A stretch of DNA of 37,392 nt from Bacillota bacterium (GTDB taxonomy: Bacteria; Bacillota; Clostridia; Lachnospirales; Anaerotignaceae). The notes beneath the pieces are model-generated. The model saw only the letters and a list, made by a program, of their open reading frames with translations, made no database searches and was not told where the DNA came from. The translations under genes and the position numbers were made by a program. Positions 12,566 to 37,392 of the stretch are shown here, piece by piece (position 1 is the stretch's first letter; every line of letters begins with the position of its first letter). The DNA is taken from assembly GCA_023413275.1 (NCBI GenBank), contig JAEZPX010000010.1, forward strand, positions 1 to 37,392, in the 5' to 3' direction.

Positions 12566-12595
12566 CTAATGCATCCTTTTCACTAAATTATTTTG

Positions 12596-19125: not shown

Positions 19126-19221
19126 AAAATGTGGTGTTTTGTCCTCTTTTGTTTCACACAATAAAATAGACAGTGCCCTCCCTTTGGGGGGGCTGTCTGC
19201 CAATACGAGCGGAGGTAAAAA

Positions 19222-20313: not shown

Positions 20314-20476
20314 AGCAGTTTTTAAGCTAAAACAAATACCAGGGTGATGGAGAATAGGGACTATGAACGAATTTATGAAGTTTAGAAAAAACGAATGTTC
20401 AGGACAATTACAAATCGGTTTTTAATCCTAAACTTCCAAGCACAACAGCTTGAAATGTTGGGGAAAGGGGAAGAAC

Positions 20477-21556: not shown

Positions 21557-21557
21557 A

Positions 21558-22544: not shown

Positions 22545-23292
22545 AGAACTGGATTTTTCCTATGGAAAGAATAAAGTTTTAAATGAAATTTCTTTTCAAA
22601 TTCCAAAAGGAAAAATAACAACGCTGATTGGAGCAAATGGCTGTGGAAAATCAACATTATTTCATGTGATGACAAAGAATTTAAGGGCGCAACAAGGTAC
22701 GATTTTTCTTGATGGGAAAAACATAAACGACATCCCTTTAAAGCAGTTTGCAAAGGAGGTTTCTATTGTACACCAATACAATGTTTCTCCCAATGATTTG
22801 ACTGTGAAGAAGCTCATTGGTTATGGGAGAATTGCTCACGGTGGTTTTGGTAAAAAAAACAAGGAACAGGATGATAAATTCATTCATTGGGCAATGGAAA
22901 TTACCGGTTTAAAGGAGTTGCAAGACAGGCAGATTTCTGATTTATCTGGGGGACAGAGACAAAGAGTATGGATTGCCATGGCACTGGCACAAAATACAAA
23001 GATACTATTTTTAGATGAACCCACTACATATTTGGATATACGGTATCAAATTGAGATATTGAAGCTGCTAAAGCGGCTGAATACAGAGCTGGGAATGACA
23101 ATGCTTGTTGTGCTCCATGATATTAATCAGGCAATACAATACAGCGACGAAATAATAGCAATGAGGGATGGAAAAATTATTGCTCAAGGGAGCCCAAGAG
23201 ATGTTGCCACGGAAAAAATATTAAAGTCAGTGTATGATGTAGATTTAAGAGTGGAGAATGTGAATGGAAATATTTTTGTTCTTACAATTTAA
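22534..23292 (+). CDS. ABC transporter ATP-binding protein (FecE/FhuC-like) of the heme importer
   Basis: Walker A GANGCGKST, signature LSGGQRQRVWIAMAL, Walker B ILFLDEPTTYLD, H-loop VLHD. ATG 22534 with SD AAAGGAGTGA, overlapping the permease stop. Confidence 0.85.
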   Translation: MEVRELDFSYGKNKVLNEISFQIPKGKITTLIGANGCGKSTLFHVMTKNLRAQQGTIFLDGKNINDIPLKQFAKEVSIVHQYNVSPNDLTVKKLIGYGRIAHGGFGKKNKEQDDKFIHWAMEITGLKELQDRQISDLSGGQRQRVWIAMALAQNTKILFLDEPTTYLDIRYQIEILKLLKRLNTELGMTMLVVLHDINQAIQYSDEIIAMRDGKIIAQGSPRDVATEKILKSVYDVDLRVENVNGNIFVLTI

Positions 23293-25126: not shown

Positions 25127-25140
25127 AGGAGGGAAAATGT

Positions 25141-25845
25141 ATGAATAGATACAGTAAAGCTTTGCTGATTTCGGGCATTATCACCGTTGTTATTTCTGCC
25201 ATTGTTTTGCTACTGTGTATCAATGACTGGAGCGGTCTTACGACTCTTGCGGCAATGTTTTTTATTTGGGCAGAAATTGTATTTTTCGGAGGCTTGATTT
25301 TTCAACAGAAAATCAGATCTCAGACAGAGCAGGTGGTGTTATATGCTTCCTTTATCCCGCTACTTACAATTTACTCCTTAGTTTGTGGGGGATTATCAGT
25401 TCTTTTTCTTATTAAATTTAAACCTGAATGGAAATTCTTTGTTAGCATTCAACTAGTTTTAGCTGGAATTACTGCAATTTTACTGATTGCTCTTTACTCA
25501 GCGAGTAGAGCTATTCGTTCCTCCAATCAGAATACAATGCACGATATTATACAGATAAATTCATATATCAGTCGGATCAATACTCTTGCAGTATCTGCGG
25601 GTGAAGAAGAGAGTTATGGACTTAATTTGAAAGCAATTTCTGAGGCATTACGCTTTACTGATGTATCTGCTGTGGTTTCTGTGGATGAGGAGATAAACCA
25701 TATCATTTCTGAATTAGAGTTAGAGTTTGAAAAAGAAACTATATTTAGGTCAGCAAAATTAATTCAAGAAAGATGCATCAAATTAGCTAAATTGATTGAA
25801 ATAAGAAAGATACAATCTAAGACCATTAAGGAAGGAATCATTTAG
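25141..25845 (+). CDS. Four-TM membrane protein with a ~110-aa C-terminal soluble (coiled-coil-like) domain; YdjH-like position in the module
   Basis: Four hydrophobic segments in aa 8-130, then a charged helical tail. ATG 25141 with SD GAGGAGGG 8 nt upstream. The track's earlier start overlaps the upstream gene. Confidence 0.55.
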   Translation: MNRYSKALLISGIITVVISAIVLLLCINDWSGLTTLAAMFFIWAEIVFFGGLIFQQKIRSQTEQVVLYASFIPLLTIYSLVCGGLSVLFLIKFKPEWKFFVSIQLVLAGITAILLIALYSASRAIRSSNQNTMHDIIQINSYISRINTLAVSAGEEESYGLNLKAISEALRFTDVSAVVSVDEEINHIISELELEFEKETIFRSAKLIQERCIKLAKLIEIRKIQSKTIKEGII

Positions 25846-25847
25846 AT

Positions 25848-26414
25848 ATGAAAAATTCGTATTCAGCAATTGTTATGAGTATCATTATTGAAAAGATACA
25901 ATTTATTGCAGGAATTATATTTCTATTAGTGTTTGGGTTGTGCACCGTGGTGTCGTTGGCAGATGCAGAACTAGCGTCTGATGGATTTCTTGCGTTTTGC
26001 CTTGTAGTGGACGGCTTATGTATTCTGTTAATTTACTTTAGCAGAAAGAGACATAAATTAAATACTGATTTTAAGAAATATGTATCCGCACTATCGGATG
26101 ATCCTACCGGTTCTATTTTAAACTTAGCAAATGCCATGGGGACTTCAGAAGATGTGGTCTCGGTGAATTTGAATAAGATGATAGAAAAAAAATATTTTTC
26201 AAATGCATATATAGACAAAAGGAAAAATTGTATTGTTTTATATAACCAAGGAGAGACAATGGGCGTTGCACCCACTGCAGGAAATGTGAGCTCCTTTACA
26301 GGAGTCTCTCAAGAAATGGTTACAGTGCGTTGTAAAGGTTGCGGCGGTGTAAACGCAATTCCAAAAGGACAATCGGCAGAGTGTGAATACTGTGGCTCCT
26401 TGCTTCAGGGGTGA
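25848..26414 (+). CDS. Membrane protein with two N-terminal TM helices, a small winged-helix-like segment and a C-terminal CxxC-x16-CxxC zinc ribbon (paralog A)
   Basis: TMs IVMSIIIEKIQFIAGIIFLLVFGLCTVVSL and FLAFCLVVDGLCILLIYF. C-terminus VRCKGCGGVNAI ... AECEYCGSLL. Paralogous to the next gene. Confidence 0.55.
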   Translation: MKNSYSAIVMSIIIEKIQFIAGIIFLLVFGLCTVVSLADAELASDGFLAFCLVVDGLCILLIYFSRKRHKLNTDFKKYVSALSDDPTGSILNLANAMGTSEDVVSVNLNKMIEKKYFSNAYIDKRKNCIVLYNQGETMGVAPTAGNVSSFTGVSQEMVTVRCKGCGGVNAIPKGQSAECEYCGSLLQG

Positions 26415-26476
26415 GCACTTAAATAAATTGGGCAATCATTAACATTTTAAGCAACAATGAAAGTGAGGGCAAAGTA

Positions 26477-27130
26477 ATGAAAAGTAAGGGAGCCCCATGG
26501 GCGTTTATTATCATACTTTTATTTCTTTTTTTCCCAGCAGGGATTATTGTTATGTTACTTAAGCTTCATAAAGATCCATTTCACTATACATCCAATGGAA
26601 ATGGTACAATAATTGTTGGTTGGATACTATTTGTGTTCGGTATTTTTTACTTGATTATTTACCTATCTGATAGTGCCACAAACAGTGGTGTCGGTCCACT
26701 ACTCAGTGGGGTGGCTTTTTGCTGTGGAGGTGGCTTTGCTCTGGTTCGACACGGAAGAAAGTACAAACAAAGAGGAATGTTATTTTCAAGATATCTCACA
26801 TGTATTATGAATAGCGAGGATGGGTCAATAGGGGACATGGCAGCATCCTTAGGGTTTACCTATGATAAAGCTTATAGGGATATTGTAGAATTGATTCAAT
26901 GTGGCGCATTGCCTAACAGCTATATTGATGAGTCAACAAATTGTGTTGTATCTCCATATATTAAAAAAGGAGTTATTGATTATACAAACAGAACACAGAT
27001 GAAAAAAGAACCTGAAAAATTTATATCTAGGACAGTGAAATGCTCCAATTGCGGTGGTATGAATAGTATCACAGGAAATAACAATGAGTGTGAATACTGT
27101 GGCTCACCTCTTGCTTATGAATATAATTAG
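26477..27130 (+). CDS. Membrane protein, TM + winged-helix-like + C-terminal zinc ribbon (paralog B)
   Basis: Same layout as the previous gene. DMAASLGFTYDKAYRDIVELIQCGALPNSYIDESTNCVV ~ NLANAMGTSEDVVSVNLNKMIEKKYFSNAYIDKRKNCIV. VKCSNCGGMNSI ... NECEYCGSPL ~ VRCKGCGGVNAI ... AECEYCGSLL. Confidence 0.55.
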   Translation: MKSKGAPWAFIIILLFLFFPAGIIVMLLKLHKDPFHYTSNGNGTIIVGWILFVFGIFYLIIYLSDSATNSGVGPLLSGVAFCCGGGFALVRHGRKYKQRGMLFSRYLTCIMNSEDGSIGDMAASLGFTYDKAYRDIVELIQCGALPNSYIDESTNCVVSPYIKKGVIDYTNRTQMKKEPEKFISRTVKCSNCGGMNSITGNNNECEYCGSPLAYEYN

Positions 27131-27163: not shown

Positions 27164-27200
27164 AGACTGTTTGCAAAATATGCAAACGGTCTTTTTTTTG
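27164..27200 (+). terminator. Strong rho-independent terminator closing the SPFH module, immediately upstream of the tail cluster
   Basis: 12-bp stem AGACTGTTTGCA / TGCAAACGGTCT (one U.G), 5-nt loop AAATA, followed by T8 (27193-27200). Confidence 0.8.
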
Positions 27201-27598
27201 TTATTTTTTTGGTCTAGAAGTGATTAAAAAAACAAGCATAAATAAATAGTATTAAGGGAGGGTAAACAGAAAAATAAGAGCCTTTAAATTAGAGTGTGAT
27301 TGCAAATGTCCGAGCTACTTTACAAATATTAGCAAAAGGGTAACTAAGGGGACATACTTTAATGATATTATCCTACCATAGATATTTGCAAACAAGCTCA
27401 TAGAGGCATTTTATATACCAATGATTTAATATTTGTAAAAATATAAATCAAAAGAGAGCATTGTTTATTGATATCTTGTTTCTGTAGACAGGCCTGCACA
27501 GATACTTATTCCAAAATTCAATTAGGGAGGGGATTTTTCAGGAAAAATGAAGAACAGAAGGTGGAGGGAAGGTATATTTCAAAGGTTAGGTGGGCGAA

Positions 27599-28012
27599 AT
27601 GGCAAAATGGGCTAAGGTAGACTATAAACAGTTGACCAAACTGCGAGATGAAGTGAACAAACTCTCTAAGGAGGAATTTCCCAAGTTCCAAGAGAAAATG
27701 GTATTAGAGATGGCCACCAGACTAGTACTAAAGGCGTTAAAGCACACCCCTACAGACCCTAAGGATTCCCCTGGGATAAGAGCGGGTTGGTGCATTGGCG
27801 ACGTGAGTTACGATGGCGGAGCCTACAGCATTGAAGTATACAATAGCTGCATCTATGCAAATTCCGTTGAATGGGGGTATTTAGCGGAGGACGGGAAGAC
27901 TTTGATACCCGGACGCTTTATGCTGCATCTTTCGGAAGAGGAGCTGCGCAAAGATGCTGACAAAGCAATAGAAGAAAAGCTGATGGAAGTTTTAAGGAGG
28001 GGTTTCCCATGA
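27599..28012 (+). CDS. Phage tail-completion / HK97 gp10-family-like protein (XkdI position)
   Basis: About 138 aa. Size and position match the XkdI/gp10-like gene that precedes XkdJ-XkdK in PBSX-type clusters. Family call from memory only. ATG 27599 with SD AGGTGGG. GTG 27590 is an alternative. Confidence 0.45.
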   Translation: MAKWAKVDYKQLTKLRDEVNKLSKEEFPKFQEKMVLEMATRLVLKALKHTPTDPKDSPGIRAGWCIGDVSYDGGAYSIEVYNSCIYANSVEWGYLAEDGKTLIPGRFMLHLSEEELRKDADKAIEEKLMEVLRRGFP

Positions 28013-28434
28013 TTTCCAAATTGATGACAGGGATTGAACAAGCTATACGAAAGGAATTCCCTGAAACTACCTATAAAATTTATATGGAGGCAACAGAGCG
28101 AGTTTCCCCTTGTTTCATTATTCTTTGTATTAGCCAAAGCCGCAATGCAAAGCTTGGAGATAGATTTATTCTGAACACCTCCTTTGAGGTGCAATATTGC
28201 TCAGGCAGTGGCAATAACGAATGCTGGGAAGTGGCAGAAAAGCTGAGGGAACTTTTAGATGTAATCTCCCTTGGGGAGGATTTGGTGCAGGGGCGAAACA
28301 ACAATTACAGGGTGGAAAACGGTGTGTTGCATTTTGTAATGGATTATAACATACCCATGATGCGAGAGCAGGATGCAGTAGATTTTATGGAAGAGGTGAC
28401 GGTGTATGGCAAAACAAGGGAAGCAGGAAAATAA
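28009..28434 (+). CDS. Phage tail protein (XkdJ position; tail terminator / sheath initiator-like)
   Basis: 141 aa. ATGA-overlapped start. SD AGGAGGGG 7 nt upstream. Sits between the completion protein and the sheath. Confidence 0.45.
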   Translation: MISKLMTGIEQAIRKEFPETTYKIYMEATERVSPCFIILCISQSRNAKLGDRFILNTSFEVQYCSGSGNNECWEVAEKLRELLDVISLGEDLVQGRNNNYRVENGVLHFVMDYNIPMMREQDAVDFMEEVTVYGKTREAGK

Positions 28435-28594
28435 AAAAGAGGAAAAATATTTTTCTAAGGAGGCAATTTTGCATAGTCAGAAATACGGAGAACACAGCGA
28501 TTTACTTTTCGCAGTATTGGCTGACGAGAAAGTATATACCTCTATGGAGATTGATAACACGATTGATGAATTTCAGAAAGGAAAGGTGAAATAA
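28406..28594 (+). CDS. Small phage-cluster protein (62 aa), hypothetical
   Basis: Fills the gap before the sheath gene. Lys/Glu-rich. Overlaps the upstream gene by 29 nt. Weak support. Confidence 0.3.
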   Translation: MAKQGKQENKKEEKYFSKEAILHSQKYGEHSDLLFAVLADEKVYTSMEIDNTIDEFQKGKVK

Positions 28595-29893
28595 ATGGGA
28601 TTAGGCGGCGGTACATATTTGGTACAAAACAAGACCCTTCCGGGGGCATACATTAACTTTATTTCTGCGGCAAGAGCTTCTGCCACACTCTCGGACAGAG
28701 GGTATGCAGCAATGGCTTTAGAATTGGACTGGGGTGTTGACGGTGAAATGTTTACCATTGAGAATGGAGATTTTCAAAAAGAATCTTTAAAAATTCTTGG
28801 TTACGAATACAGCCATGAAAAGCTAAAGGGTCTGCGAGATTTATTTTGCAATGCCAAAACATTATACGCTTATCGCTTAAACAGCGGCAATAAGGCGGTA
28901 AATCCCTTTGCAACAGCATGTTATAGTGGTATTCGTGGCAATGATATTAAAATTGCCATTTCTGCCAATGTGGACGAGCCCACAAAATTTGATGTGATTA
29001 CGTTATTGGAAAACACAAAAGTAGATATACAGACTGTGGCTGAGGTGTCAGAATTAAAGGACAATGATTTCGTTGTATTTAAAAAGGATTGGGTTTTAGA
29101 AGAAACAGCGGCAATTCCGTTGGCAGGCGGTACAAACGGTCAAACAACAGGTTCATCTTACCAGGCGTTTTTGGATAAGGCGGAAGCCTATAATTTTAAT
29201 ACATTGGGTTGTCTTTCCAAGGAGGAGAGCATCAAAGGACTCTTTGTTGCCTTTACCAAGCGATTAAGAGATGAAATGGGTATTAAATTTCAGACTGTTA
29301 TGTTTAACAAGGCGGCAGATTACGAAGGTATCATCAATTTGAAAAATAAGGTGACAGATGGTGAAGAGACTAGTCTTGTTTATTGGCTGACAGGAGCATC
29401 CGCAGGCTGTGCTGTAAATAAATCCATTGCCAATAAGGAGTACGACGGCGAGTTTTTGGTAGATACAGCCTACAAACAGAGCCAATATGCAGCCGCTTTG
29501 GATGCGGGTGAATTTGTATTCCATAAAATTGGTGACGATGTAAGGGTATTAGATGATATTAACAGCTTTGTTTCCGTTACCACAGATAAAAACGAAGATT
29601 TTACAAGTAATCAGGTTATCAGAGTCATTGACCAAATTGGCAACGATATTGCTGTGCTTTTTAATACCCGTTATATGGGGAAAGTACAGAACAATGAATC
29701 GGGCAGAATCGCTTTTTGGAGCGAGTTGGTTTCCTACAATAAGCAGATGGAACAAATTCAGGCAATTGAAAACTTTGTTTCTGATGAATTGATTGTAAAA
29801 AAAGGCAATGATAAAAAATCTGTAGTTGTGGTGAATCCTGTGACACCAGTTTGCGCCATGACGAAACTGTATATGACCGTTGTTGTTGAATAA
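28595..29893 (+). CDS. xkdK: Phage tail sheath protein (XkdK family)
   Basis: 432 aa. MGLGGGTYLVQNKTLPGAYINFISAARASATLSDRGYAAMALELDWG... resembles the XkdK/PBSX sheath N-terminus as I recall it. SD AAAGGTGA. Followed by the tube gene. Confidence 0.8.
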   Translation: MGLGGGTYLVQNKTLPGAYINFISAARASATLSDRGYAAMALELDWGVDGEMFTIENGDFQKESLKILGYEYSHEKLKGLRDLFCNAKTLYAYRLNSGNKAVNPFATACYSGIRGNDIKIAISANVDEPTKFDVITLLENTKVDIQTVAEVSELKDNDFVVFKKDWVLEETAAIPLAGGTNGQTTGSSYQAFLDKAEAYNFNTLGCLSKEESIKGLFVAFTKRLRDEMGIKFQTVMFNKAADYEGIINLKNKVTDGEETSLVYWLTGASAGCAVNKSIANKEYDGEFLVDTAYKQSQYAAALDAGEFVFHKIGDDVRVLDDINSFVSVTTDKNEDFTSNQVIRVIDQIGNDIAVLFNTRYMGKVQNNESGRIAFWSELVSYNKQMEQIQAIENFVSDELIVKKGNDKKSVVVVNPVTPVCAMTKLYMTVVVE

Positions 29894-29910
29894 GAGAGGG
29901 GGCAGAAAGA

Positions 29911-30380
29911 TGAGTAATATTACAATGCTGAGCAAGGATGCTATTTCTGCAAAAAAAGCAGAGTGCTTCATTACCATTGAAGGGAACCGTTACAACTTCA
30001 TGAGTGCCATTTCCGTAGAGGCTAAGATGGAGAAAACAAAGGCAGAAGTTCCTATTTTAGGAAGAATGAACAAGGGTCATAAGGCAGTGGGGGCAAATGG
30101 TACAGGCAGTGCCACCTTCCACTATAACACATCTATTTTCCGTGAATTGATGAAGCGTTATCAAGATACTGGAGAGGATGTTTACTTTGATATGCAGATT
30201 ACTAACGAAGACCCTACCTCTAACGTTGGTCGACAGACAATCATTCTTCGTGATTGTAACATTGACAGTATGGTGATTGCCAAGTTTGACGCTGACGGCG
30301 AATATTTAGACGAGGAAATGGAGTTTACATATGAAAGTTTTGAAATGCCCGAAACATTTCAAATGCTAAGCGGAATGTAA
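29911..30380 (+). CDS. xkdM: Phage tail tube protein (XkdM family)
   Basis: EVPILGRMNKGHKAVGANGTGSATFHYNTSIF ... YFDMQITNEDPTSNVGRQTIILRDCNIDSMVIAKFDADGEYLDEEMEFTYESFEMPETF closely parallels XkdM as I recall it (EVNIMGRRMTGHKTTGANGTGTATFYKVTS ... ). ATG 29911 with SD GAGGGGG. Confidence 0.8.
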
Positions 30381-30400
30381 AAAAAGAGGAGGAATGATAT

Positions 30401-30820
30401 ATGAGTTTATCAGCATTTTTGAATCCTGTAAAGGAAGAAACCTGCAAGGTTGTAGCTAGCAAGCGTTTTATTGGTGAGGACGGAAAGCCTGTTGAATGGG
30501 AATTGAGAACCATTACGGCAGATGAGGATGAGGCAATCCGCAAAGCCTGCACCAAAAGGATGCCCATTCCCGGAAGAAAAGGCCAGTTTAGCCAAGAAAC
30601 GGATTTAAACAAATACTTGGGTTTATTGGCGGTTTCTTGTACTGTTTTTCCCAACCTGAACGACGTAGAGCTGCAAAATGGATATGGTGTGATGGGGGCG
30701 GACAATTTGTTGAAGACTATGCTTCATGCAGGGGAGTATACCCAATATGTTTCCAAGGTTCAAGAATTAAATGGATATGATTCCTCCATGGACGAATTGG
30801 TGGATGAGGCAAAAAACTAA
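30401..30820 (+). CDS. xkdN: Phage tail assembly chaperone (XkdN-like, gpG equivalent)
   Basis: MSLSAFLNPVKEETCKVVASKRFIGEDGKPVEWELRTITADEDEAIRKACTK is XkdN-family-like. Ends at a slippery heptamer. Immediately upstream of the tape measure gene. Confidence 0.75.
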   Translation: MSLSAFLNPVKEETCKVVASKRFIGEDGKPVEWELRTITADEDEAIRKACTKRMPIPGRKGQFSQETDLNKYLGLLAVSCTVFPNLNDVELQNGYGVMGADNLLKTMLHAGEYTQYVSKVQELNGYDSSMDELVDEAKN

Positions 30821-30993
30821 TTGACGGGGGCGATGGAGACAGCAACTATGCATATTACTGCCTGCATCAGCTGCACCTATTACCCTCACAATTTTTGAAA
30901 CTTCCAAGAGAAGAAAAGGCTTTTCTAATTGCTTCTATTCAGTTAAAGGCGGAGAAAGAAAAGAGAGAGTCCAAAAAAATGAAGAAAAGGTAA
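30811..30993 (+). other. -1 programmed-frameshift extension of the tail assembly chaperone (gpGT-like product): slippery site A_AAA_AAC 30811-30817, then a 58-codon -1 ORF ending at 30993
   Basis: Zero-frame codons GCA AAA AAC TAA. The X_XXY_YYZ heptamer A AAA AAC abuts the stop. The -1 frame is open from the slip site to TAA 30991-30993 and encodes ...KK LIDGGDGDSNYAYYCLHQLHLLPSQFLKLPREEKAFLIASIQLKAEKEKRESKKMKKR, 108 nt before the tape measure start. No other ORF covers 30821-31101. Confidence 0.55.
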
Positions 30994-31101
30994 ATTAGAT
31001 TAAATATTTTGGAAAAATTTCTTGGGAAATAAATACTAACACTGGAAAAGCATTCGACATTTAGCGGATACTTTTCTGGTGTTTGGAAAGAAGGTGAAAA
31101 A

Positions 31102-32787
31102 ATGGGAACGATTAAAACCTCGATTCAATTGTTTGACGGGGCCACGCCAGGGCTTTTGGATATTGCCAATGCTTTAAATCGAGCAGTTCTTGGTTTTGAA
31201 GCCCTAGAACGGGCATCTTCCAATTGCATTGATACCAATTCTTTGAGAGAAGGCAGGGAAGAGTTGGATATGACAAAGTCATCATTTCAACAAATACAAG
31301 ATTCTATCAAAGCGGCAGGGGAACAACAGAAAAAATTCAATAAAACTATAAGTGCAAGTGCGGAGATTTCGGAAGGTATTTTTTCTAATCAAGAAAAGGC
31401 AAACGGTATAGCGAATAGTAGCAGTGGAGCAAATCTTTCGGAAATGGGACAGAAAACCCTTGGAAGTGCCAGCATTACATCTGGGATGGAGGGTAGTGGA
31501 GGAAATTTAAGCCTTGGTACAGGAGAAGAATTTCCTGAGGAAACGGCAAAGCCGACAAAGAACGATAAAGTTAACGCTGCTGTTGATACATTAAGCAGTG
31601 TGATACCGCAAGGCTATACTTCTACCGATGAGATGAAAAATTCAATGTTTGCTGCGGCGGATGAAATAGATACAAAATTCAGCGGGCTTTCTCAAGTTCT
31701 AGGTTCTGTCTGGTCTGGTGTGACAGGAGAACAAGTGGAGGCCATAAAGGTTACTGATCTTTTAGCAAATAGCTGGAGCAGCTTTGCACCTGTTGTGACG
31801 GGAGCGGCAGCAGCAATGAATTTGTACAATCTTGCTATGGATGCAGGTAAGGTGGCCCAAGTGCTACAAGCTGGCGCAACGCTAATCGGTACAGCGTTTA
31901 ATGGAGCATGGACAACTTCTGTATTTGCACAAACTGCTGCTCAAGAAGGACTGAATACTGCGCTTTTAACATGTCCAATAACATGGATTATTGTTGCAAT
32001 CATTCTTTTAGTTGCCATAATTTATGGGGCAGTGGCGGCAATTAACAAACTTACGGGGTCGAGTATTTCAGCAACGGGGATTATTGCAGGTGCGTTTGGT
32101 GTTCTGGGTGCGAGTATTTTTAATAGCTTTGCTTTTTTGTGGAATATAATTTCAATTTTCGTAAATTTTTTACACAATGCTTTTCAAGACCCTATTGCAG
32201 CTATCAAAGTATTGTTTTATGATTTAGCAACTTGTGTTTTAAAGAAACTGAAAACAATTGCAGATGCAATTGGTGAAGTTTTTCATAAGATTACCGGTAA
32301 AGATTTGCAGCTTTTTAGCGGTCTGGATACTTTAATAAGTGATCTAGAGAGTAAATCACAGGGTATAAAAGATGAAGCTGGTTTTAAGGATGTAATGCAT
32401 ACCCTTGACTACAAGGATTATAGTGGTGTATTTAGTAATATGTATGACAAGGGTGAAGGGTTAGAGAATTCATCAAGCATATTTGACAGGGACAAAGCTG
32501 GGGACGGCGGCATGGATCAGCTTTTACAAAACACGGCAAATACTGCCGCAAATACAGGGGCTATGACAGATAACATGGAAATTTCACAAGAGGATATAAG
32601 GTATCTTCGAGATATTTCCGAAAGAGATGCCATCAATCGCTTTACCACGGCTCAGGTCAGTGTGGATTTTAAAAATGAAGCAACGATAAATTCTGATATG
32701 GATATTGACGGCGTGATGAATAAGTTCACAGATGTGCTCCGTGAGGCAATCTTTACCCAGGCAGAGGAGGTGCATGCCATTGTATAA
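31102..32787 (+). CDS. Tail tape measure protein (short, 561 aa; XkdO position)
   Basis: Position right after the chaperone/frameshift pair. Coiled N-terminal third, Gly/Ala-rich hydrophobic central segments (AAAAMNLYNLAMDAG ... ITWIIVAIILLVAIIYGAVAAINKL ... IIAGAFGVLGASIFNSF). SD GAAGGTGA. Confidence 0.65.
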   Translation: MGTIKTSIQLFDGATPGLLDIANALNRAVLGFEALERASSNCIDTNSLREGREELDMTKSSFQQIQDSIKAAGEQQKKFNKTISASAEISEGIFSNQEKANGIANSSSGANLSEMGQKTLGSASITSGMEGSGGNLSLGTGEEFPEETAKPTKNDKVNAAVDTLSSVIPQGYTSTDEMKNSMFAAADEIDTKFSGLSQVLGSVWSGVTGEQVEAIKVTDLLANSWSSFAPVVTGAAAAMNLYNLAMDAGKVAQVLQAGATLIGTAFNGAWTTSVFAQTAAQEGLNTALLTCPITWIIVAIILLVAIIYGAVAAINKLTGSSISATGIIAGAFGVLGASIFNSFAFLWNIISIFVNFLHNAFQDPIAAIKVLFYDLATCVLKKLKTIADAIGEVFHKITGKDLQLFSGLDTLISDLESKSQGIKDEAGFKDVMHTLDYKDYSGVFSNMYDKGEGLENSSSIFDRDKAGDGGMDQLLQNTANTAANTGAMTDNMEISQEDIRYLRDISERDAINRFTTAQVSVDFKNEATINSDMDIDGVMNKFTDVLREAIFTQAEEVHAIV

Positions 32788-33439
32788 GGTTAGTTTTGGG
32801 GATGTTTCCCTTCCTGTAGCTCCAAGTAAAATCACTATGAAGACAAAAAATAACAACAAAACAATGGAATTGATTGATGGAAGTGAAATCAATTTCATAA
32901 GAACACCGGGACTAACAGAATTTAACTTTGAGTTTTTAATTCCCCATGTGAAGTACCCCTTTGCCTATTATCCTGACGGATTTCAGTCTGCACAGTTGTA
33001 TATTGATGCGCTAGAATTGATGAAAACAGATAGAAAGTGGTTTCAATTTAATATCCAACGACAACTGCCCAATGGGAAAACAGAATTTGAAACTAGTGAA
33101 ACAGTAACATTGGAGGACTATTCTATTACCGAGGATACAGGCAACGGTCTGGATTTTATTGCTAATGTAACACTAAAGAAATATAACGAGCATAAAATTA
33201 CCCACGTCGAACCTGTGCAAGCGACAGAAGAAGGCGTTGTAGTAAAAGAAGTAACAGAGCGTAAGAGCGACAAAAAGGCAAGTAATGTATATACAGTAAA
33301 AAAAGGGGATAGCCTTTGGAAAATTTGCAAGGCGCAATTAGGGGATGGTGCAAAATTTAAGGAAATCGCAAAGCTAAATGGCATTTCTAATCCCAATCTC
33401 ATTTATCCGGGGCAGGTGATTCAGCTTGGTAATGCTTAA
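32774..33439 (+). CDS. xkdP: LysM-domain tail protein (XkdP-like)
   Basis: C-terminal LysM YTVKKGDSLWKICKAQLGDGAKFKEIAKLNGISNPNLIYPGQVIQLG. Overlaps the tape measure end. The start is ATG 32774 (SD AGGAGG only 3 nt upstream), or possibly TTG 32780. Confidence 0.7.
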   Translation: MPLYKVSFGDVSLPVAPSKITMKTKNNNKTMELIDGSEINFIRTPGLTEFNFEFLIPHVKYPFAYYPDGFQSAQLYIDALELMKTDRKWFQFNIQRQLPNGKTEFETSETVTLEDYSITEDTGNGLDFIANVTLKKYNEHKITHVEPVQATEEGVVVKEVTERKSDKKASNVYTVKKGDSLWKICKAQLGDGAKFKEIAKLNGISNPNLIYPGQVIQLGNA

Positions 33440-34385
33440 AATTGTAAATGGTGACAAGGAATATACCCCCATTATAACAGGGGATATCAAATGGTCAACA
33501 GAGCGAGCGGGTGTACCGGGAAGCTTAACTTTTGACGTGGTAAAGGAGGGGGAGCTGAATTTTCATGAAGGGAATTTAGTAAAGCTTTGTGTTGGCGAAA
33601 CTCCAGTTTTTTTGGGCTATGTCTTTCAGAAAAAAAGAAGCAAAGGGGAAATAATTAGCGTCACTGCTTATGACCAGCTGAGGTATCTGAAAAATAAGGA
33701 CAGCTTTATCTTTGAGAAGTTGACCGCAACGGAATTTATTGACAGAGTTGCAATGCATTTTTCACTAAAGAAGGGCGAAATTGCGGATACTCAATACGTC
33801 ATTGAGAAAGGGGTTCTGGATAATAAAACCTTATTTGATATGATTCAAGAAGTATTGGATACTACATTGATGAATACCAAAACACTCTATGTTTTGTATG
33901 ACGATTTTGGCAAGCTGGCACTAAAAAATATTGAGGATATGAAGCTGGATATTTTACTGGATGAGAAAACAGCGGAGAATTTTGATTATGTCAGCAGCAT
34001 TGACGGGGAAACTTATAACCAGATTAAGATCGCTTTTGATAGCAAGGAGAAAAAAGGGCTTCAAGATGGATTCACGGTTCAGGACGAGGAAAATATTAAA
34101 AAATGGGGCGTTTTGCAGTATTATGAAAAATCAAAAACAGATGTGGGAGTAAAGGAGAAGGCGAATGCCCTTTTAGACCTTTACAACCGTAAAACAAGAA
34201 CGCTAAGCATCAAAAATGCCTTCGGCTCGCCCAATGTACGGGCGGGATGCAGCCTACGGGTAGCGTTAAAGCTGGGTGATATTAATGTAAACCATTACTT
34301 TGTCTGCGAGAAGGTGACCCATACCTTTCGAGAGGATATGCATTTGATGGACCTTACGTTGAGAGGAGGAGATATTCTTGTCTGA
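33432..34385 (+). CDS. xkdQ: XkdQ/YqbQ-like tail protein (baseplate hub / late-control-D-like position)
   Basis: About 317 aa. Position and size match the XkdQ family. ATG 33432 lies just before the upstream stop 33437-39. Confidence 0.6.
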   Translation: MLKIVNGDKEYTPIITGDIKWSTERAGVPGSLTFDVVKEGELNFHEGNLVKLCVGETPVFLGYVFQKKRSKGEIISVTAYDQLRYLKNKDSFIFEKLTATEFIDRVAMHFSLKKGEIADTQYVIEKGVLDNKTLFDMIQEVLDTTLMNTKTLYVLYDDFGKLALKNIEDMKLDILLDEKTAENFDYVSSIDGETYNQIKIAFDSKEKKGLQDGFTVQDEENIKKWGVLQYYEKSKTDVGVKEKANALLDLYNRKTRTLSIKNAFGSPNVRAGCSLRVALKLGDINVNHYFVCEKVTHTFREDMHLMDLTLRGGDILV

Positions 34386-34788
34386 GTTGGCACAATTGAT
34401 TAAAAAGGCGGCAAAGGATCAGATGGATTCCTCTAAGCCTATGGATATTATCATTGGAGAGGTAGTTTCTGGGGCACCTCTTAAGATTAAATTGGACTCC
34501 AAGATTACTTTGACGGAGTCCTTTTTGATTCTAACAAAGGCGGTGGTAGACTATTCGGTCAATATGACGGTGAACCATACCACAGAAACCCATACTCACA
34601 GTCACACCTATCAGGATGACAGCACCACTAGGACGACCCAGCCCCATACCCATAACCATGCTTATGTAGGAACAAAAAGCTTTACCATACACAACAAGCT
34701 GAAGGTTGGGGATTATGTTATTTTACTACGGGCTCATGGGGGACAAAAATTTATTGTACTTGATATTGTAGGAGGTGGCACATTATGA
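34378..34788 (+). CDS. xkdR: XkdR-like (DUF2577-type) small baseplate/spike protein carrying an HxHxH-rich insert
   Basis: TTG start with strong SD GAGAGGAGGAG 6 nt upstream. Conserved XkdR-like blocks PLKIKLDSKITLTESFLILTKAVVDY and LKVGDYVILLRAHGGQKFIVLDIV flank NHTTETHTHSHTYQDDSTTRTTQPHTHNHAY. Confidence 0.6.
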   Translation: MSELAQLIKKAAKDQMDSSKPMDIIIGEVVSGAPLKIKLDSKITLTESFLILTKAVVDYSVNMTVNHTTETHTHSHTYQDDSTTRTTQPHTHNHAYVGTKSFTIHNKLKVGDYVILLRAHGGQKFIVLDIVGGGTL

Positions 34789-35186
34789 CACCCAAAGTAA
34801 ACGAAGAATTGGCAAATACCTTTGTAAGGCTGTCATTACCCTCAAAAACCTATCGTTTTGACAGAGAAAAAAATCGAATCTATGGATACTGTGACGGAGT
34901 GGAGGCAGTGAAGCAGGCTGTGTATAAGGCATTGCTTACGGAACGGTATGCTTGGGTAATTTATTCATGGAACTATGGCTCAGAGCTTAACGGGCTGTTT
35001 GGAAAGCAAATGACTACTGTCTATCCTGAGGTGAAAAGAAGAATTGAAGAGGCTTTGTTGCAGGATGACCGCATTAAAAATGTTAAGGATTTTTCTTTTG
35101 AAAAAACAAGGAATACCCTACATGTAACTTTTACAGTGGAGTCTACAGTGGGGATTTTTGAAAGTGAGGTGAACTTAAATGTATGA
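34785..35186 (+). CDS. xkdS: XkdS-like baseplate protein (gp25/GPW-like wedge position)
   Basis: 133 aa. ATGA overlap with the upstream gene. SD GGAGGTGG. Position between the XkdR-like gene and baseplate J. Confidence 0.6.
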   Translation: MTPKVNEELANTFVRLSLPSKTYRFDREKNRIYGYCDGVEAVKQAVYKALLTERYAWVIYSWNYGSELNGLFGKQMTTVYPEVKRRIEEALLQDDRIKNVKDFSFEKTRNTLHVTFTVESTVGIFESEVNLNV

Positions 35187-36240
35187 AGAAATGACTTTTG
35201 AGACGGTACTGGATCGTATGCTGAGTCGGGTTTCCTCTGATATAGATAAGCGGGAAGGGAGCATTATTTATGATGCCCTTGCCCCTGCAGCGGCGGAGCT
35301 TTGTCAGATGTATATTGACCTAGATATTGTTCTAAATGAAACTTTTGCAGATACGGCAAGCAGAGATTATTTAATTCTTAGAGCAAAGGAAAGAGGGATA
35401 ACACCCTACGAAGCCACAAAAGCCATTGGAAAGGCAGTTTTTAATTGCTCTGTTCCTGTAGGCAGTCGGTTTAATCTGGAAAATTTCAACTATAAAGTGA
35501 CGGAGGTAATTTCTTCTCAGACCTTTACTTATAAAGTTATCTGCGAAACGGTTGGAAGTGATGCAAATCATAACTTAGGTACGTTGATTCCTATACAGTA
35601 TATTCAAGGGTTGACCATGGCTGAATTGGTGGAGGTATTGACTCCTGGGGAGGATGCAGAAAGCACACAAAGCCTGAGGAAGCGCTATTTAAATAGCTTT
35701 GATAGGCAGGCATTTGGAGGAAATCGGGCAGATTATATGGAAAAAATCAATGCCATATCCGGCATAGGGGGCTGTAAGGTATACCGTGCATGGAATGGCG
35801 GGGGAACGGTGAAATGTGTGGTACTGAATTCTCAGTATCAAAAACCCAGCCAAAGCCTGATTGACGATGTGCAGACTACCGTTGATCCTACCCAGAATGC
35901 AGGGGGCGGCTTAGGTATCGCCCCAATTGACCATGTGGTGACTATTGAAGGGGTGACGGAAACTCCTATTGCCATTGCAAGCACCATAACTTATGAAAGT
36001 GGATGGAACTTTGCAGAGTGTAAACCTTATATCGAGGAGATTTTAGATCGATATTTTATGGAATTAAGCAAAGGCTGGGCAGATAGCGGAAATCTTGTGG
36101 TACGAATTTCTCAGATTGAATCCAGATTGTTGGATATGGATGGGATTTTGGATATTGGGAATACAACCATTAACGGAGAAGCTAAAAACCTGATGCTGGA
36201 TGAAAATTGCATCCCCATAAGGGGTGAGTTCTATGGCTGA
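35179..36240 (+). CDS. xkdT: Baseplate J family protein (XkdT-like, gp6 analogue)
   Basis: 353 aa. N-terminus MYEEMTFETVLDRMLSRVSSDIDKREGSIIYDALAPAAAELCQMYIDLDIV is baseplate-J-like. Overlapping start. SD GAGGTG. Confidence 0.8.
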   Translation: MYEEMTFETVLDRMLSRVSSDIDKREGSIIYDALAPAAAELCQMYIDLDIVLNETFADTASRDYLILRAKERGITPYEATKAIGKAVFNCSVPVGSRFNLENFNYKVTEVISSQTFTYKVICETVGSDANHNLGTLIPIQYIQGLTMAELVEVLTPGEDAESTQSLRKRYLNSFDRQAFGGNRADYMEKINAISGIGGCKVYRAWNGGGTVKCVVLNSQYQKPSQSLIDDVQTTVDPTQNAGGGLGIAPIDHVVTIEGVTETPIAIASTITYESGWNFAECKPYIEEILDRYFMELSKGWADSGNLVVRISQIESRLLDMDGILDIGNTTINGEAKNLMLDENCIPIRGEFYG

Positions 36241-36778
36241 AATTCAGAATTATTTTCCTGACCTGTTGAAAGAAGTGAGGGAGTTTCAAAAGCTGGCAAT
36301 AGCTGAGAATCCTGAGCTTCTTTTTTTATGGAATGAGCTGGCTCAGGTTTTGGATAACCAATTTATTGATACGGCGACCAAAACAGGGGTAGCAAGGCGA
36401 GAGCGTATGTTAAAAATCACCCCGAAAGCCACGGAAACTTTAGAGGAGAGAAAGTTTCGCTTATTGGCAAGGTACAACGAGAATTTGCCTTATACATTAC
36501 GGACGCTACAAAGTCAGCTTTCAATTCTTTGTGGAGAAAAGGGGTATCGGCTGGAAATCAATTACGGTGCCTTCAGCCTAAAGGCGAAGCTGGAGTTGAC
36601 AAACAAAAAAAATGTGGAAGCTGTGGAGGAAATGCTGGAGAGAATTGTGCCTATGAATATGTTACTTACTGTGGAATTGCTGTACAACCAACATCAAGAA
36701 CTAAGGAAGTTAACCCATGGTGCAATGAGGGCATACACCCATGATGGTCTAAGAGAGGAGGCATTTGGAAATGGCTGA
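36233..36778 (+). CDS. xkdU: XkdU-like (DUF2313/YmfQ-type) tail protein
   Basis: ATG 36233 overlaps the upstream stop. SD AAGGGGTGAG. Position after baseplate J. Contains FSLKAKLELTNKKNVEAVEEMLERIVPMNMLL. Confidence 0.6.
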   Translation: MAEIQNYFPDLLKEVREFQKLAIAENPELLFLWNELAQVLDNQFIDTATKTGVARRERMLKITPKATETLEERKFRLLARYNENLPYTLRTLQSQLSILCGEKGYRLEINYGAFSLKAKLELTNKKNVEAVEEMLERIVPMNMLLTVELLYNQHQELRKLTHGAMRAYTHDGLREEAFGNG

Positions 36779-36962
36779 TTTTACGGCAAATTATAATTTG
36801 GAAAAGCCTGCCCAGAGTGATTTTTATAATGTAGAAGTGCAGAATAAGAACATGGATAAAATTGATGGAGCTTTGGCAGGGGCGAAATACATTATTTCCC
36901 CTTCGGGAGAGAAGTACAAATGGGGAATGGATACAGACGGTTTGTTTTTAGAGGAGGTGTAA
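36771..36962 (+). CDS. Small tail-associated protein (about 63 aa), hypothetical
   Basis: MADFTANYNLEKPAQSDFYNVEVQNKNMDKIDGALAG... The motif (NY.L.KP...D.Y.V...N.NMDKID) resembles N-termini of Firmicute phage tail-fibre proteins. It may be a separate small gene or an N-terminal module. Overlaps the xkdU-like end. Confidence 0.35.
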   Translation: MADFTANYNLEKPAQSDFYNVEVQNKNMDKIDGALAGAKYIISPSGEKYKWGMDTDGLFLEEV

Positions 36963-36965
36963 GCT

Positions 36966-37392
36966 ATGGCAAGTGGTGACAAGTTTTATTTAGCGGATAA
37001 GGAAACGCTGAATGAGGTGGACGAAAAGATTGGCAGTACCAAGGATACAGGGGGGAGCAGTACCGCAGGAAGTGTCTTTGGGAAAATCAATTATTTGGTT
37101 TCTCAGGTGAGTAGTTATTTGGCTACGATTTACTCGTGGGTTAATACACTCATGGGTAAGATTGGTAATACCAATGATAGCGAAGGCACAGCAACCACAG
37201 GAACAGTAATGGGGAAGTTGAATTTTTTGGTTACAAGGATGGGTAGCGTTTATTCATGGGCTAATAATATCTTCAGCAGAGTGGGTACTACAACAGATAC
37301 AGGTGGAACCACGACAGCGGGGACAGTCATGGCAAAGGAAAATGCTATTTTGACTGAGGTGAATAAACTTGGTGATGCAAATGATACGGGTG
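36966..37392 (+). CDS. Tail fibre / receptor-binding protein with ~42-aa tandem repeats; 5' partial, open to the window end
   Basis: ATG 36966, open through 37392 with no stop, so it is absent from the ORF track. Three diverging repeats: IG(S/N)T(K/N)D..G..T.G(S/T)V(F/M)GK(I/L)N(Y/F)LV ... (V/I)YSW(V/A)N. Confidence 0.55.
   Translation, partial: MASGDKFYLADKETLNEVDEKIGSTKDTGGSSTAGSVFGKINYLVSQVSSYLATIYSWVNTLMGKIGNTNDSEGTATTGTVMGKLNFLVTRMGSVYSWANNIFSRVGTTTDTGGTTTAGTVMAKENAILTEVNKLGDANDTG

What the first reader, a model, noticed from the sequence alone, without database searches (positions are those of the whole stretch)
27164..37392. Headless PBSX-type contractile tail cluster that starts abruptly after a terminator: tailocin (diffocin-like R-type bacteriocin) or defective-prophage candidate
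From 27599 to the window end there are at least 15 co-directional, overlapping genes in the canonical XkdI-J-K-M-N-O-P-Q-R-S-T-U-V order: completion, sheath, tube, chaperone with frameshift, tape measure, LysM, hub, spike, wedge, baseplate J and fibre. The 4.3 kb immediately upstream encodes a cellular SPFH/zinc-ribbon membrane module, not terminase, portal or capsid genes. A strong terminator (27164-27200) and a 400-nt AT-rich gap precede the first tail gene. In PBSX-like phages the head genes always lie directly upstream in the same orientation, so this unit appears to be a stand-alone contractile tail, like C. difficile diffocins. Regulator, holin and lysin genes presumably lie beyond the window.
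Basis: partly seen in the sequence, partly recalled or inferred. Interest (0 to 1): 0.75.

Follow-up and report, generated by a model that had tools for sequence, protein, structure and literature searches.

The report
Headless contractile phage-tail operon in Anaerotignum
A gut/anaerobe bacterium (Anaerotignum propionicum group) carries an intact, evolutionarily conserved set of phage tail genes with no head genes, most likely a tail-shaped weapon against related strains ("tailocin"). This kind of element is known, but not in this bacterial group, and this one has no cell-lysis enzyme of its own.

Summary
Window 27599-37392 encodes 15 co-directional PBSX-type contractile-tail genes, from an HK97-gp10-like neck protein to a truncated fibre. 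A real terminator and a 468-nt gap precede them.

The whole 27 kb upstream is cellular. Orthologous loci from other Anaerotignum genomes show the cluster ends about 3 kb past the window: a variable fibre cassette, then two small membrane proteins, then 10 kb of cellular genes. There is no terminase, portal, capsid, integrase or endolysin.

The same headless unit sits at the same chromosomal site in at least six diverged lineages. Every gene is intact, with dN/dS 0.00-0.27 at dS up to 0.76. The -1 frameshift chaperone is conserved, and the fibre cassette is swapped between strains.

Its nearest relatives (75-79% sheath identity) are complete head-bearing phages, one of them 100 kb away on the same A. 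propionicum contig.

The best reading is a domesticated R-type tailocin that arose independently of diffocin. Open points: no regulator was found, there is an unexplained conserved 283-nt leader, and only half of the ancestral lysis cassette remains, so release and induction may depend on other loci. It is a new member of a known kind, of moderate interest.

The parts
27164..27200 (+). Intrinsic terminator that closes the upstream SPFH/membrane-protein operon. It is not part of the tail unit but insulates it.
   Evidence: 12-bp stem with 5 GC pairs followed by a T-run. Remnants of it persist in lineages that have lost the SPFH module.
27316..27598 (+). Conserved non-coding leader and left boundary of the unit. 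It opens with a -35-like box (TTTACA here, TTGACA in the L012/L022 lineage). It is the presumed promoter and long 5' UTR.
   Evidence: In every orthologous locus, homology resumes exactly at 27316 whatever lies upstream. No Rfam match, no LexA box, and no similarity to the related prophage. Only 2 compensatory pairs among 5 sequences.
27599..28012 (+). HK97-gp10-like neck / tail-completion protein (XkdI position); first gene of the cluster.
   Evidence: PF04883, E 6.5e-9. dN/dS 0.13-0.27. Only 49-51% identical to the phage counterparts, although those are 77% identical to each other.
28009..28434 (+). Tail terminator (collar; XkdJ position).
   Evidence: PF20765, E 3e-24. dN/dS 0.17-0.19.
28406..28594 (+). 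62-aa conserved small tail protein.
   Evidence: phrog_966, E 2e-15. Homologue of phage CDMH1 gp13 at the same position.
28595..29893 (+). Contractile tail sheath (XkdK-like).
   Evidence: Four sheath Pfam domains. PDB 3hxl, E 1e-94. dN/dS 0.05-0.08.
29910..30380 (+). Tail tube (XkdM-like).
   Evidence: PF09393, E 1e-52. PBSX XkdM 2guj, E 5e-29. dN/dS about 0.00-0.01.
30401..30993 (+). Tail assembly chaperone (XkdN-like, 30401-30820) with a programmed -1 frameshift. The slippery A_AAA_AAC lies at 30811-30817 and the 58-codon extension ends about 30993.
   Evidence: PF08890, E 1e-46. Slippery site and extension are conserved in 6 headless loci and 3 phages.
31102..32787 (+). Tape measure protein, 561 aa.
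   Evidence: Assigned by position and by 36-43% identity to phage tape measures carrying PF20155. dN/dS 0.10-0.18. No Pfam hit of its own.
32780..33439 (+). LysM baseplate protein (XkdP-like).
   Evidence: PF01476, E 9e-15. dN/dS 0.10-0.19.
33426..34385 (+). Baseplate hub (XkdQ/YqbQ-like). It lacks the C40 peptidase extension found in phage CDMH1 gp24.
   Evidence: PF24032, E 9e-107. Matches only the N-terminal ~315 aa of the 629-aa CDMH1 C40 peptidase.
34378..34788 (+). DUF2577 spike-position protein (XkdR-like).
   Evidence: PF10844, E 9e-29. dN/dS 0.02-0.05.
34785..35186 (+). Sheath initiator (gp25 / XkdS-like).
   Evidence: PF10934, E 8e-35.
35179..36240 (+). Baseplate J wedge/triplex protein (XkdT-like).
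   Evidence: PF04865, E 4e-55. PDB phiCD508 gp65, E 3e-23, and diffocin CD1371, E 7e-21.
36233..36778 (+). Mu gp48 / XkdU-like baseplate protein.
   Evidence: PF10076, E 2.5e-27.
36771..36962 (+). 63-aa protein resembling the N-terminus of long tail fibres (a fibre adaptor piece).
   Evidence: phrog_37900 positions 1-37. Fused to a longer XkdV_N-like protein in phage L033.
36966..37392 (+). Tail fibre / receptor-binding protein: conserved N-terminus with ~33-aa repeats, cut by the window end. The rest of the cassette differs between strains.
   Evidence: Translation. Only the first ~160-220 nt are shared among lineages; the following 1.3-2.1 kb is non-homologous.

Best explanation
This is a chromosomally fixed, domesticated, head-less contractile-tail operon of about 11 kb in the Anaerotignum propionicum group: an R-type phage tail-like bacteriocin (tailocin) locus. 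It derives from a temperate Anaerotignum myophage lineage and arose independently of C. difficile diffocin.

**Shown here:**
- The locus is the exact tail module of that phage lineage, from the gp10-like neck protein to the second gene of the phage lysis cassette.
- Everything to the left is missing (terminase, portal, protease/MuF, scaffold, capsid, two adaptors). Everything to the right is missing too (a third membrane protein, the peptidase-type endolysin and the rest of the prophage).
- It is flanked by cellular genes and inherited with the chromosome.
- Every gene is kept intact under purifying selection.
- The receptor-binding cassette is exchanged between strains.

**Inferred mechanism:**
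1. An unknown signal activates a promoter at about 27320, ahead of a conserved 283-nt leader.
2. The hub (XkdQ-like), LysM protein, DUF2577 spike, gp25-like initiator, Baseplate-J/gp48-like wedge and the fibre form a baseplate.
3. The 561-aa tape measure, with the TAC and its frameshifted form, sets the length of the XkdM-type tube. At roughly 0.15 nm per residue this is about 80-85 nm.
4. The sheath polymerises around the tube and is capped by the terminator and the gp10-like protein.
5. Particles leave the cell with the help of the retained 2-TM holin-like protein (98 aa) and its 103-aa partner, plus a lysin encoded elsewhere.
6. The fibre binds a strain-specific surface receptor on related cells, the sheath contracts, and the tube punctures and depolarises the target.
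For: **Gene set.** The tail gene set is complete by Pfam, PHROGs and PDB. The programmed -1 frameshift site and its extension are conserved.

**No head genes.** No head, packaging, integrase or tRNA gene lies in 27 kb upstream or 10 kb downstream.

**Same unit in many genomes.** The same unit, with the same left junction at 27316, occurs in the window, L001/L002, L011, L012, L019-21, L022-24, L029 and L034-36. The upstream gene arrangement differs in four ways among these loci.

**Selection.** For the 14 complete tail genes in the window, dN/dS is 0.00-0.27 at dS 0.06-0.76, with no stops in 4 diverged lineages. This is similar to the flanking cellular genes (0.03-0.25, one pair at 0.51). The two lysis-cassette genes have dN/dS 0.06-0.19.

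**Contrast with real decay.** A truly decaying relative (L017) has split sheath, baseplate J and tape measure genes.

**Nearest relatives are full phages.** L033 has 79% sheath identity, and L027/L028 have 75-76%. L027 lies on the same A. propionicum contig, 100 kb away.

**Head-proximal proteins.** These are the most diverged from the phages. gp10 is 49-51% identical to the phage versions, against 77% between the two phages. This fits release from head docking.

**Fibre cassette.** It is non-homologous between strains, while the flanks are 82-96% identical.

**Lysis-cassette origin of the small proteins.** The order 103 aa - ~105 aa - ~70-85 aa - peptidase is conserved in both sipho- and myo-type Anaerotignum prophages. 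The Faecalibacterium phage Lagaffe homologue lies two genes before its endolysin.
Against: - No particle, induction or killing data exist for this organism; two literature searches found nothing on Anaerotignum phage tails or on tailocins in Lachnospiraceae.
- There is no endolysin and no regulator gene in the cluster.
- There is no sigma-70 consensus promoter on the + strand of the leader and no LexA box. Expression and release are therefore unexplained.
- The gp10-like neck protein is retained under purifying selection, which would also fit continued docking to a head.
- A related complete prophage is present in at least two of the genomes. A role dependent on it cannot be excluded.
- Whole genomes were not scanned for unlinked head genes.
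Confidence: 0.62

Rival explanations
1. A dependent tail module. The cluster is functional but not autonomous. It is switched on by, and released through the lysis genes of, a co-resident related prophage. Its tails may even join that prophage's DNA-filled heads, giving them a different fibre and host range. Alternatively it is one half of a split PBSX/GTA-like element whose head genes lie elsewhere.
For: - The cluster has no regulator and no endolysin of its own.
- It keeps the gp10-like neck protein and the terminator under purifying selection.
- A complete related prophage sits on the same contig in two independent assemblies.
- That prophage carries the full 4-gene lysis cassette.
Against: - The neck proteins are only 48-56% identical to the phage versions, while the rest of the tail is 67-87% identical. 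This argues against a shared head interface.
- The leader has no similarity to any part of the prophage locus held, which runs from just upstream of the terminase genes to the lysis genes.
- Prophage presence in the window's own strain and in most other strains is unknown.
- Tail terminator and completion proteins are needed to cap headless tails too. Diffocin keeps its collar protein CD1362 (PMC10996793).
Confidence: 0.17
2. An inert prophage remnant: a leftover tail module with no present function that has not yet decayed.
For: - It lacks head, lysis-enzyme, regulatory and integration genes.
- One MAG (L012) has a 25-nt gap that breaks the hub gene.
- IMG/VR lists it simply as an 11-14 kb provirus fragment.
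Against: - All 16 genes are intact in several lineages separated by dS up to 0.76, with dN/dS 0.00-0.27, matching the neighbouring cellular genes.
- The frameshift signal is conserved.
- The non-coding leader is conserved.
- A genuinely decaying relative looks quite different (L017).
Confidence: 0.08
3. A contractile injection system with a non-bacteriocin role, for example payload delivery like Afp/PVC/MAC-type eCIS, or a role in vesicle or DNA release.
For: Headless contractile particles have several known uses. No killing data exist here.
Against: - The gene set is of the phage PBSX type, with an XkdN chaperone and frameshift, a LysM XkdP and an XkdM tube.
- There is no AAA+ ATPase, no Afp-type duplicated tube/sheath genes and no toxin or payload gene between the baseplate and fibre genes or after them.
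- Strain-level fibre swapping is the signature of intraspecific targeting.
Confidence: 0.05

Closest known systems
Diffocin (R-type bacteriocin of Clostridioides difficile, CD1359-CD1379)
   Same: - A headless chromosomal cluster of PBSX-type tail genes in a Gram-positive anaerobe.
- The same part list: collar/terminator, sheath, tube, tape measure, LysM, hub, spike, sheath initiator, Baseplate-J triplex and a variable receptor-binding protein (PMC10996793; PMC12713668).
- Baseplate J matches CD1371 at E 7e-21.
   Different: - Only remote sequence kinship. The sheath matches CD1363 at E 5e-11 over residues 189-396, and the tube matches CD1364 at E 2.5e-6.
- The sheath is the long 432-aa type, against 354 aa in diffocin.
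- The cluster is about 11 kb with 17-18 genes, against 21.8 kb and about 21-25 genes.
- The diffocin locus is drawn with regulatory and lysis-associated genes (PMC12713668). Here there is no endolysin or regulator.
- Different order (Lachnospirales) and independent origin.
Anaerotignum temperate myophages (L027/L030 in A. propionicum DFI.7.94; L028; L033), and more distantly C. difficile phages phiCDMH1/phiC2
   Same: Gene-for-gene collinear from the gp10-like gene to the 98/105-aa membrane protein. Amino-acid identity is 36-87% (sheath 74-79%, tube 75-87%). The TAC slippery site is identical. The CDMH1 sheath is 57% identical.
   Different: The phages also have terminase small and large subunits, SPP1-type portal, MuF, scaffold, capsid, two adaptors, an extra gene between TAC and tape measure, XkdX, a third small membrane protein and a peptidase endolysin. 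None of these is present here.
PBSX of Bacillus subtilis and the 'R-type tailocin prophages' of solventogenic clostridia (clostocin O, C. beijerinckii)
   Same: The same tail-gene family and order (XkdI to XkdV). The tube's best solved homologue is PBSX XkdM. These elements are reported to kill as tail-like particles (PMC10538166).
   Different: Those elements are about 28-40 kb and, according to PMC10538166, retain the full set of head and lysis genes. This locus has physically lost them.
R-type pyocins of Pseudomonas aeruginosa
   Same: The concept is the same: a domesticated headless contractile tail fixed at one chromosomal site, with strain-specific fibres.
   Different: P2-like ancestry in a Gram-negative host. 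From general knowledge, the pyocin locus carries its own regulators (PrtN/PrtR) and a full holin/lysin cassette. No such genes are found here.

Membership tests
R-type phage tail-like bacteriocin (tailocin) | Complete contractile-tail gene set (sheath, tube, chaperone, tape measure, baseplate, fibre, terminator) | tested here: met
   Pfam, PHROGs and PDB hits. Frameshift chaperone.
R-type phage tail-like bacteriocin (tailocin) | No capsid, portal or terminase genes in the locus | tested here: met
   27 kb upstream in the window and 10 kb downstream in L011/L029 are cellular. All 13+ orthologous loci are headless. Whole genomes were not scanned.
R-type phage tail-like bacteriocin (tailocin) | Maintained by selection at a fixed chromosomal site (domesticated, not decaying) | tested here: met
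   dN/dS 0.00-0.27 at dS up to 0.76 with intact ORFs. Shared junction at 27316.
R-type phage tail-like bacteriocin (tailocin) | Strain-variable receptor-binding protein | tested here: met
   The fibre cassette (1.3-2.1 kb) is non-homologous among 4 lineages, with conserved flanks.
R-type phage tail-like bacteriocin (tailocin) | Own lysis cassette (holin plus endolysin) | tested here: not met
   A 98-aa 2-TM holin-like gene and a 103-aa partner are present. The third membrane protein and the NlpC/P60- or C39_2-type peptidase of related phages are absent.
R-type phage tail-like bacteriocin (tailocin) | Dedicated regulator(s) or stress (SOS) inducibility | tested here: inconclusive
   No regulator gene inside the cluster. 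No LexA box. A conserved leader of unknown function. An orphan BlaI-family gene lies 0.5 kb downstream.
R-type phage tail-like bacteriocin (tailocin) | Headless particles that kill related strains | not testable with these tools
   Needs induction, EM and killing assays.
Diffocin (orthologous group of C. difficile CD1359-1379) | Close sequence kinship to CD1363/CD1364/CD1371 and so on | tested here: not met
   E-values are only 5e-11 (partial), 2.5e-6 and 7e-21. Phage and PBSX proteins score better. The hub, terminator and gp10 find no PDB chain.
PBSX-like defective prophage / complete temperate myophage | Head and packaging module upstream of the tail genes | tested here: not met
   This module is absent here but present in all related phages examined.
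Afp/PVC-type extracellular contractile injection system | AAA+ ATPase, Afp-type duplicated tube/sheath genes and payload genes | tested here: not met
   None were found among the cluster ORFs. The architecture is of the phage XkdK-V type.

The most novel reading that the evidence does not exclude
The cluster is a non-autonomous 'tail satellite'. Having lost its own regulator and endolysin, it relies on a co-resident related prophage for induction and lysis. It either rides out of the cell as a tailocin during that phage's burst or caps the phage's capsids with an alternative tail and fibre, altering host range. This would be a domesticated tail module that depends on a helper phage, the mirror image of capsid-forming satellites that steal tails.
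Probability: 0.12. Interest if true: 0.8.

Novelty: new member of a known kind. Interest (0 to 1): 0.45.

Why it matters
Diffocin is the only Gram-positive R-type tailocin found in this work whose gene cluster has physically lost its head genes. Other clostridial 'tailocin prophages' keep their head genes (PMC10538166).

A second, independently derived and strongly conserved example would show that this kind of domestication recurs in anaerobic Bacillota. This one is in Lachnospirales, a group of gut and digester bacteria.

It also offers a compact (~11 kb) scaffold with naturally swappable fibre cassettes, which could be used for engineering narrow-spectrum killers.

The missing endolysin and regulator, together with a complete sister prophage in the same genome, make it a tractable case for asking how domesticated tails are induced and released.

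Tried and rejected
- **Exact-sequence look-up of Baseplate J:** not on record. The sheath and initiator look-ups worked.
- **81-aa ORF overlapping the first gene in L012/L022:** rejected as spurious. It runs across the non-coding leader, is broken in the window, and has an unprotein-like sequence.
- **Leader as a relic of a head or adaptor gene:** no blastn or tblastx similarity to the sister prophage.
- **Leader as a known RNA:** no Rfam hit at gathering score or at E<=1, apart from chance hits on the upstream terminator. The RNAalifold structure has only 2 compensatory pairs among 5 sequences, which is not enough.
- **LexA/Cheo box and CopY/BlaI-type TACAnnTGTA box:** none in the leader.
- **Sigma-70 promoter scan:** no + strand site in the leader.
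- **SPFH module as phage cargo or a defence system:** no PADLOC hit and almost no phage hits. It is a strain-variable neighbour, not part of the unit.
- **PDB sequence searches** for gp10, terminator and hub: no hits.
- **98-aa protein against phage records:** no tblastn hit.
- **tRNA or att-site search:** no tRNA in the window.
- **Literature:** nothing on Anaerotignum phage tails or on tailocins in Lachnospiraceae.
- **Not used:** structure prediction and the large representative-protein search. Family assignments were already unambiguous.

Full report
**1. Observation**

The window is about 38% GC, with a strand switch near 10.4 kb.

From 27599 to the window end there are 15 co-directional, mostly overlapping ORFs. 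Pfam identifies eleven of them far above the gathering thresholds:
- HK97-gp10-like
- tail terminator (PF20765)
- sheath (four domains)
- tube (DUF2001)
- XkdN-like chaperone
- LysM protein
- YQBQ hub
- DUF2577
- sheath initiator
- Baseplate_J
- Mu gp48-like

The remaining ORFs fit by position and by homology to phage proteins. These are the 561-aa tape measure, a 62-aa protein (phrog_966), a 63-aa protein resembling a fibre N-terminus, and a truncated repeat-rich fibre.

The chaperone gene ends in the classical slippery heptamer A_AAA_AAC. A 58-codon -1 extension follows. Both are conserved in six orthologous loci and three related phages.

The terminator at 27164-27192 is real. The gap before the first tail gene is 468 nt at 33% GC.

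Everything from 1 to 27130 is cellular:
- a hybrid histidine kinase
- an SLH/CAP protein
- two ABC exporters
- a DtxR-like regulator
- a 2132-aa SLH surface protein
- a NEAT/Shp/FecCD/ABC haem-uptake operon
- an SPFH (Band_7_1) double-zinc-ribbon protein followed by three membrane proteins

**2. Source and the part beyond the window**

The Baseplate J protein is 94% identical to that of Anaerotignum propionicum DFI.7.94 and 93% identical to that of an Anaerotignum MAG. Metagenome contigs 99% identical to the window also exist.

These loci show what follows the window:
- the fibre gene or genes
- a 103-aa protein with an N-terminal TM segment and a coiled coil (phrog_9428)
- a 98-aa protein with two TM helices and a highly charged C-terminus, which is holin-like

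After these come an orphan BlaI-family repressor, homocysteine S-methyltransferase, a BlaR1/BlaI pair and hydrogenase maturation genes (HycI, HypF, HypC, HypD).

So the unit is about 11 kb. It has no terminase, portal, capsid, integrase, tRNA or endolysin within -27 kb or +10 kb.

**3. The same headless unit in many genomes, in changing surroundings**

Four upstream arrangements occur:
- haem operon + SPFH module + tail (window, L001, L002)
- SPFH module + tail without the haem operon and exporters (L019-21)
- exporter fragments + SPFH + tail (L035)
- haem operon + tail, with only remnants of the SPFH module's end (L012, L022-24, L036)

In all of them, homology resumes at exactly window position 27316. 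This is the start of a 283-nt non-coding leader that is 80-100% conserved. The SPFH module is therefore a variable neighbour and not part of the unit.

IMG/VR holds three copies as 11-14 kb 'viral' fragments. All are headless and have cellular flanks.

**4. Is it decaying?**

No. I compared the window with four diverged lineages (L011, L012, L019, L022).
- All 14 complete tail genes are full-length and free of stops.
- dN/dS is 0.00-0.27 at dS 0.06-0.76.
- The flanking haem-uptake and SPFH-module genes give 0.03-0.25 (one pair at 0.51) at dS 0.13-0.98, which is similar.
- The two small lysis-type genes give dN/dS 0.06-0.19.

The only defect seen is a 25-nt gap in the hub gene of one MAG (L012).

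A related prophage in a Catonella MAG (L017) shows what real decay looks like. Its sheath, Baseplate J and tape measure genes are all split.

**5. Origin**

More distant relatives all have head-tail adaptor homologues immediately upstream of the gp10-like gene. These come from Fumia, Catonella, Roseburia and a Clostridiales MAG, at 47-55% Baseplate J identity. Phage CDMH1 (57% sheath identity) has the full order from terminase to capsid, then adaptors, gp10 and tail.

The sheath search revealed closer relatives.
- A 79% identical sheath lies in a head-bearing phage contig, L033.
- A 75-76% identical paralogue lies in a complete prophage on the same A. propionicum contig, 100 kb from the headless locus. 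The same pairing occurs in a second assembly (L027/L030, L028).

The headless unit is collinear with that prophage from gp10 to the 98/105-aa gene. Amino-acid identity is 36-79% for the tail proteins and 79% and 86% for the two small genes, and nucleotide identity is about 70%.

The prophage continues with an 84-aa membrane protein and a 207-aa protein. The latter has weak NlpC/P60 and Cu_amine_oxidN1 (cell-wall-binding) matches.

In Anaerotignum sp. MB30-C6, both a sipho-type and a myo-type prophage carry the same order: 103 aa, 105-108 aa, 68-85 aa, then a Peptidase_C39_2 protein. In Faecalibacterium phage Lagaffe, the 103-aa homologue lies two genes before the endolysin.

The two small genes are therefore the first half of a conserved lysis cassette. 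The headless unit has lost the second half, including the lysin.

**6. Signs of adaptation to life without a head**

Among the window, L027 and L033, the sheath, tube, chaperone and baseplate proteins are about equally diverged (67-87%). The head-proximal proteins behave differently:

| Protein | Window vs either phage | L027 vs L033 |
|---|---|---|
| gp10-like | 49-51% | 77% |
| Terminator | 48-56% | 66% |
| Tape measure | 36-43% | 59% |

The tape measure is also shorter (553-583 aa against 591-655 aa).

Compared with CDMH1 gp24, the hub lacks the C-terminal C40 peptidase domain.

The 1.3-2.1 kb between the 63-aa gene and the 103-aa gene is essentially non-homologous among four headless lineages. 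Only the first ~160-220 nt and the last ~50 nt are shared. That is a swapped receptor-binding cassette, as in other tailocins.

**7. What remains unexplained**

- The leader opens with a TTTACA box (TTGACA in one lineage) but has no consensus -10 on the + strand.
- It has no LexA box and no BlaI/CopY-type box.
- It has no Rfam match.
- It has no similarity to the prophage, and too little covariation to support a structure.
- No regulator gene lies inside the unit. The nearest candidate is the orphan BlaI-family gene 0.5 kb downstream, which is conserved in all loci. Its involvement is speculation.
- How particles would be released without a lysin is unknown.

**8. Comparison with known systems**

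In function and architecture this is like diffocin. Diffocin has a collar (CD1362), sheath, tube, tape measure, LysM protein, hub, spike, initiator, triplex and receptor-binding protein (PMC10996793).

Sequence kinship with diffocin is remote:
- sheath: E 5e-11, partial match
- tube: E 2.5e-6
- Baseplate J: E 7e-21

PBSX XkdM and prophage sheaths from Desulfitobacterium and Listeria score far better.

A review of solventogenic clostridia reports that their R-type 'tailocin prophages' keep the full set of structural genes, heads included (PMC10538166). That makes physically headless clusters such as diffocin and this one the exception among Gram-positives.

No paper on Anaerotignum phage tails, or on tailocins in Lachnospiraceae, was found.

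It is not an Afp/PVC-type eCIS. There is no AAA+ ATPase or payload gene, and the architecture is the phage XkdK-V type.

**9. Verdict**

This is a stand-alone, selectively maintained, headless contractile-tail operon, most likely an R-type tailocin.

It is a new member of a known kind that arose independently in Lachnospirales. Its particular features are the loss of the endolysin and of any recognisable regulator, a conserved leader of unknown function, and a complete sister prophage in the same genome.

That last point leaves room for a helper-dependent 'tail satellite' reading, at about 0.12 probability. Interest is 0.45.

Noticed in passing
window 23822-27130: The SPFH (Band_7_1) + triple double-zinc-ribbon protein and its three membrane-protein genes form a four-gene operon. 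It is present in some Anaerotignum lineages and deleted in others, where only remnants of its last gene and terminator survive. It has no PADLOC hit and almost no phage hits. From memory, it resembles the B. subtilis YdjG/H/I membrane-stress module.
   Followed up: partly
window 6864-23292: The ABC-exporter pair and the whole haem-uptake region are absent from the A. propionicum lineage of L019-21. That region includes a DtxR-like regulator with a NEAT fragment, a 2132-aa SLH/Fn3 surface protein, Shp/NEAT-SLH, and the binding protein, FecCD and ATPase genes. In L035 the exporter genes are reduced to fragments. This is a strain-variable 16-kb island.
   Followed up: partly
window 27316-27598: A 283-nt non-coding leader is conserved as strongly as coding sequence. 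It contains a conserved hairpin (CTGTG...CACAG, around 27472-27495). No known RNA family matches it and no operator was recognised.
   Followed up: partly
L027/L030 (A. propionicum JANGAD010000001.1, 225-256 kb) and L028: A complete myophage-type prophage is related to the headless cluster. It is 92-93% identical between two assemblies, except for the tape measure and fibre. It is followed by a Kelch/Big_2 surface protein and Cu_amine_oxidN1 proteins.
   Followed up: partly
L012 8273-9207: In one Anaerotignum MAG, the hub gene of the headless cluster carries a 25-nt gap that splits it into 90-aa and 221-aa ORFs. This is either an assembly error or a lineage-specific inactivation.
   Followed up: no
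L017 (Catonella MAG CAKAGD010000002.1): A related prophage has split sheath, terminator, tape measure and Baseplate J genes. It is an example of genuine decay.
   Followed up: no
L033 3617-5176: The MuF-like head protein of the closest phage relative carries a C-terminal Ntox50 toxin domain.
   Followed up: no
L031 12717-19224 (Anaerotignum sp. MB30-C6, CP133078.1): A siphophage-type prophage is followed directly by TIR_2, ThsA_Macro, ThsB_TIR and HamA + helicase genes. These look like Thoeris- and Hachiman-like defence genes at the prophage end.
   Followed up: no
P0130, P0138, P0142 (homologues of the 103-aa protein): NCBI and UniRef name this small TM/coiled-coil lysis-cassette protein 'serine/threonine protein kinase'. 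This looks like a propagated misannotation.
   Followed up: no
L011 14154-14561; L029 11129-11536: An orphan BlaI/Penicillinase_R-family repressor gene lies 0.5 kb downstream of the tail unit, on the same strand, in every locus. A separate BlaR1/BlaI pair lies 2-3 kb further on, on the other strand.
   Followed up: no
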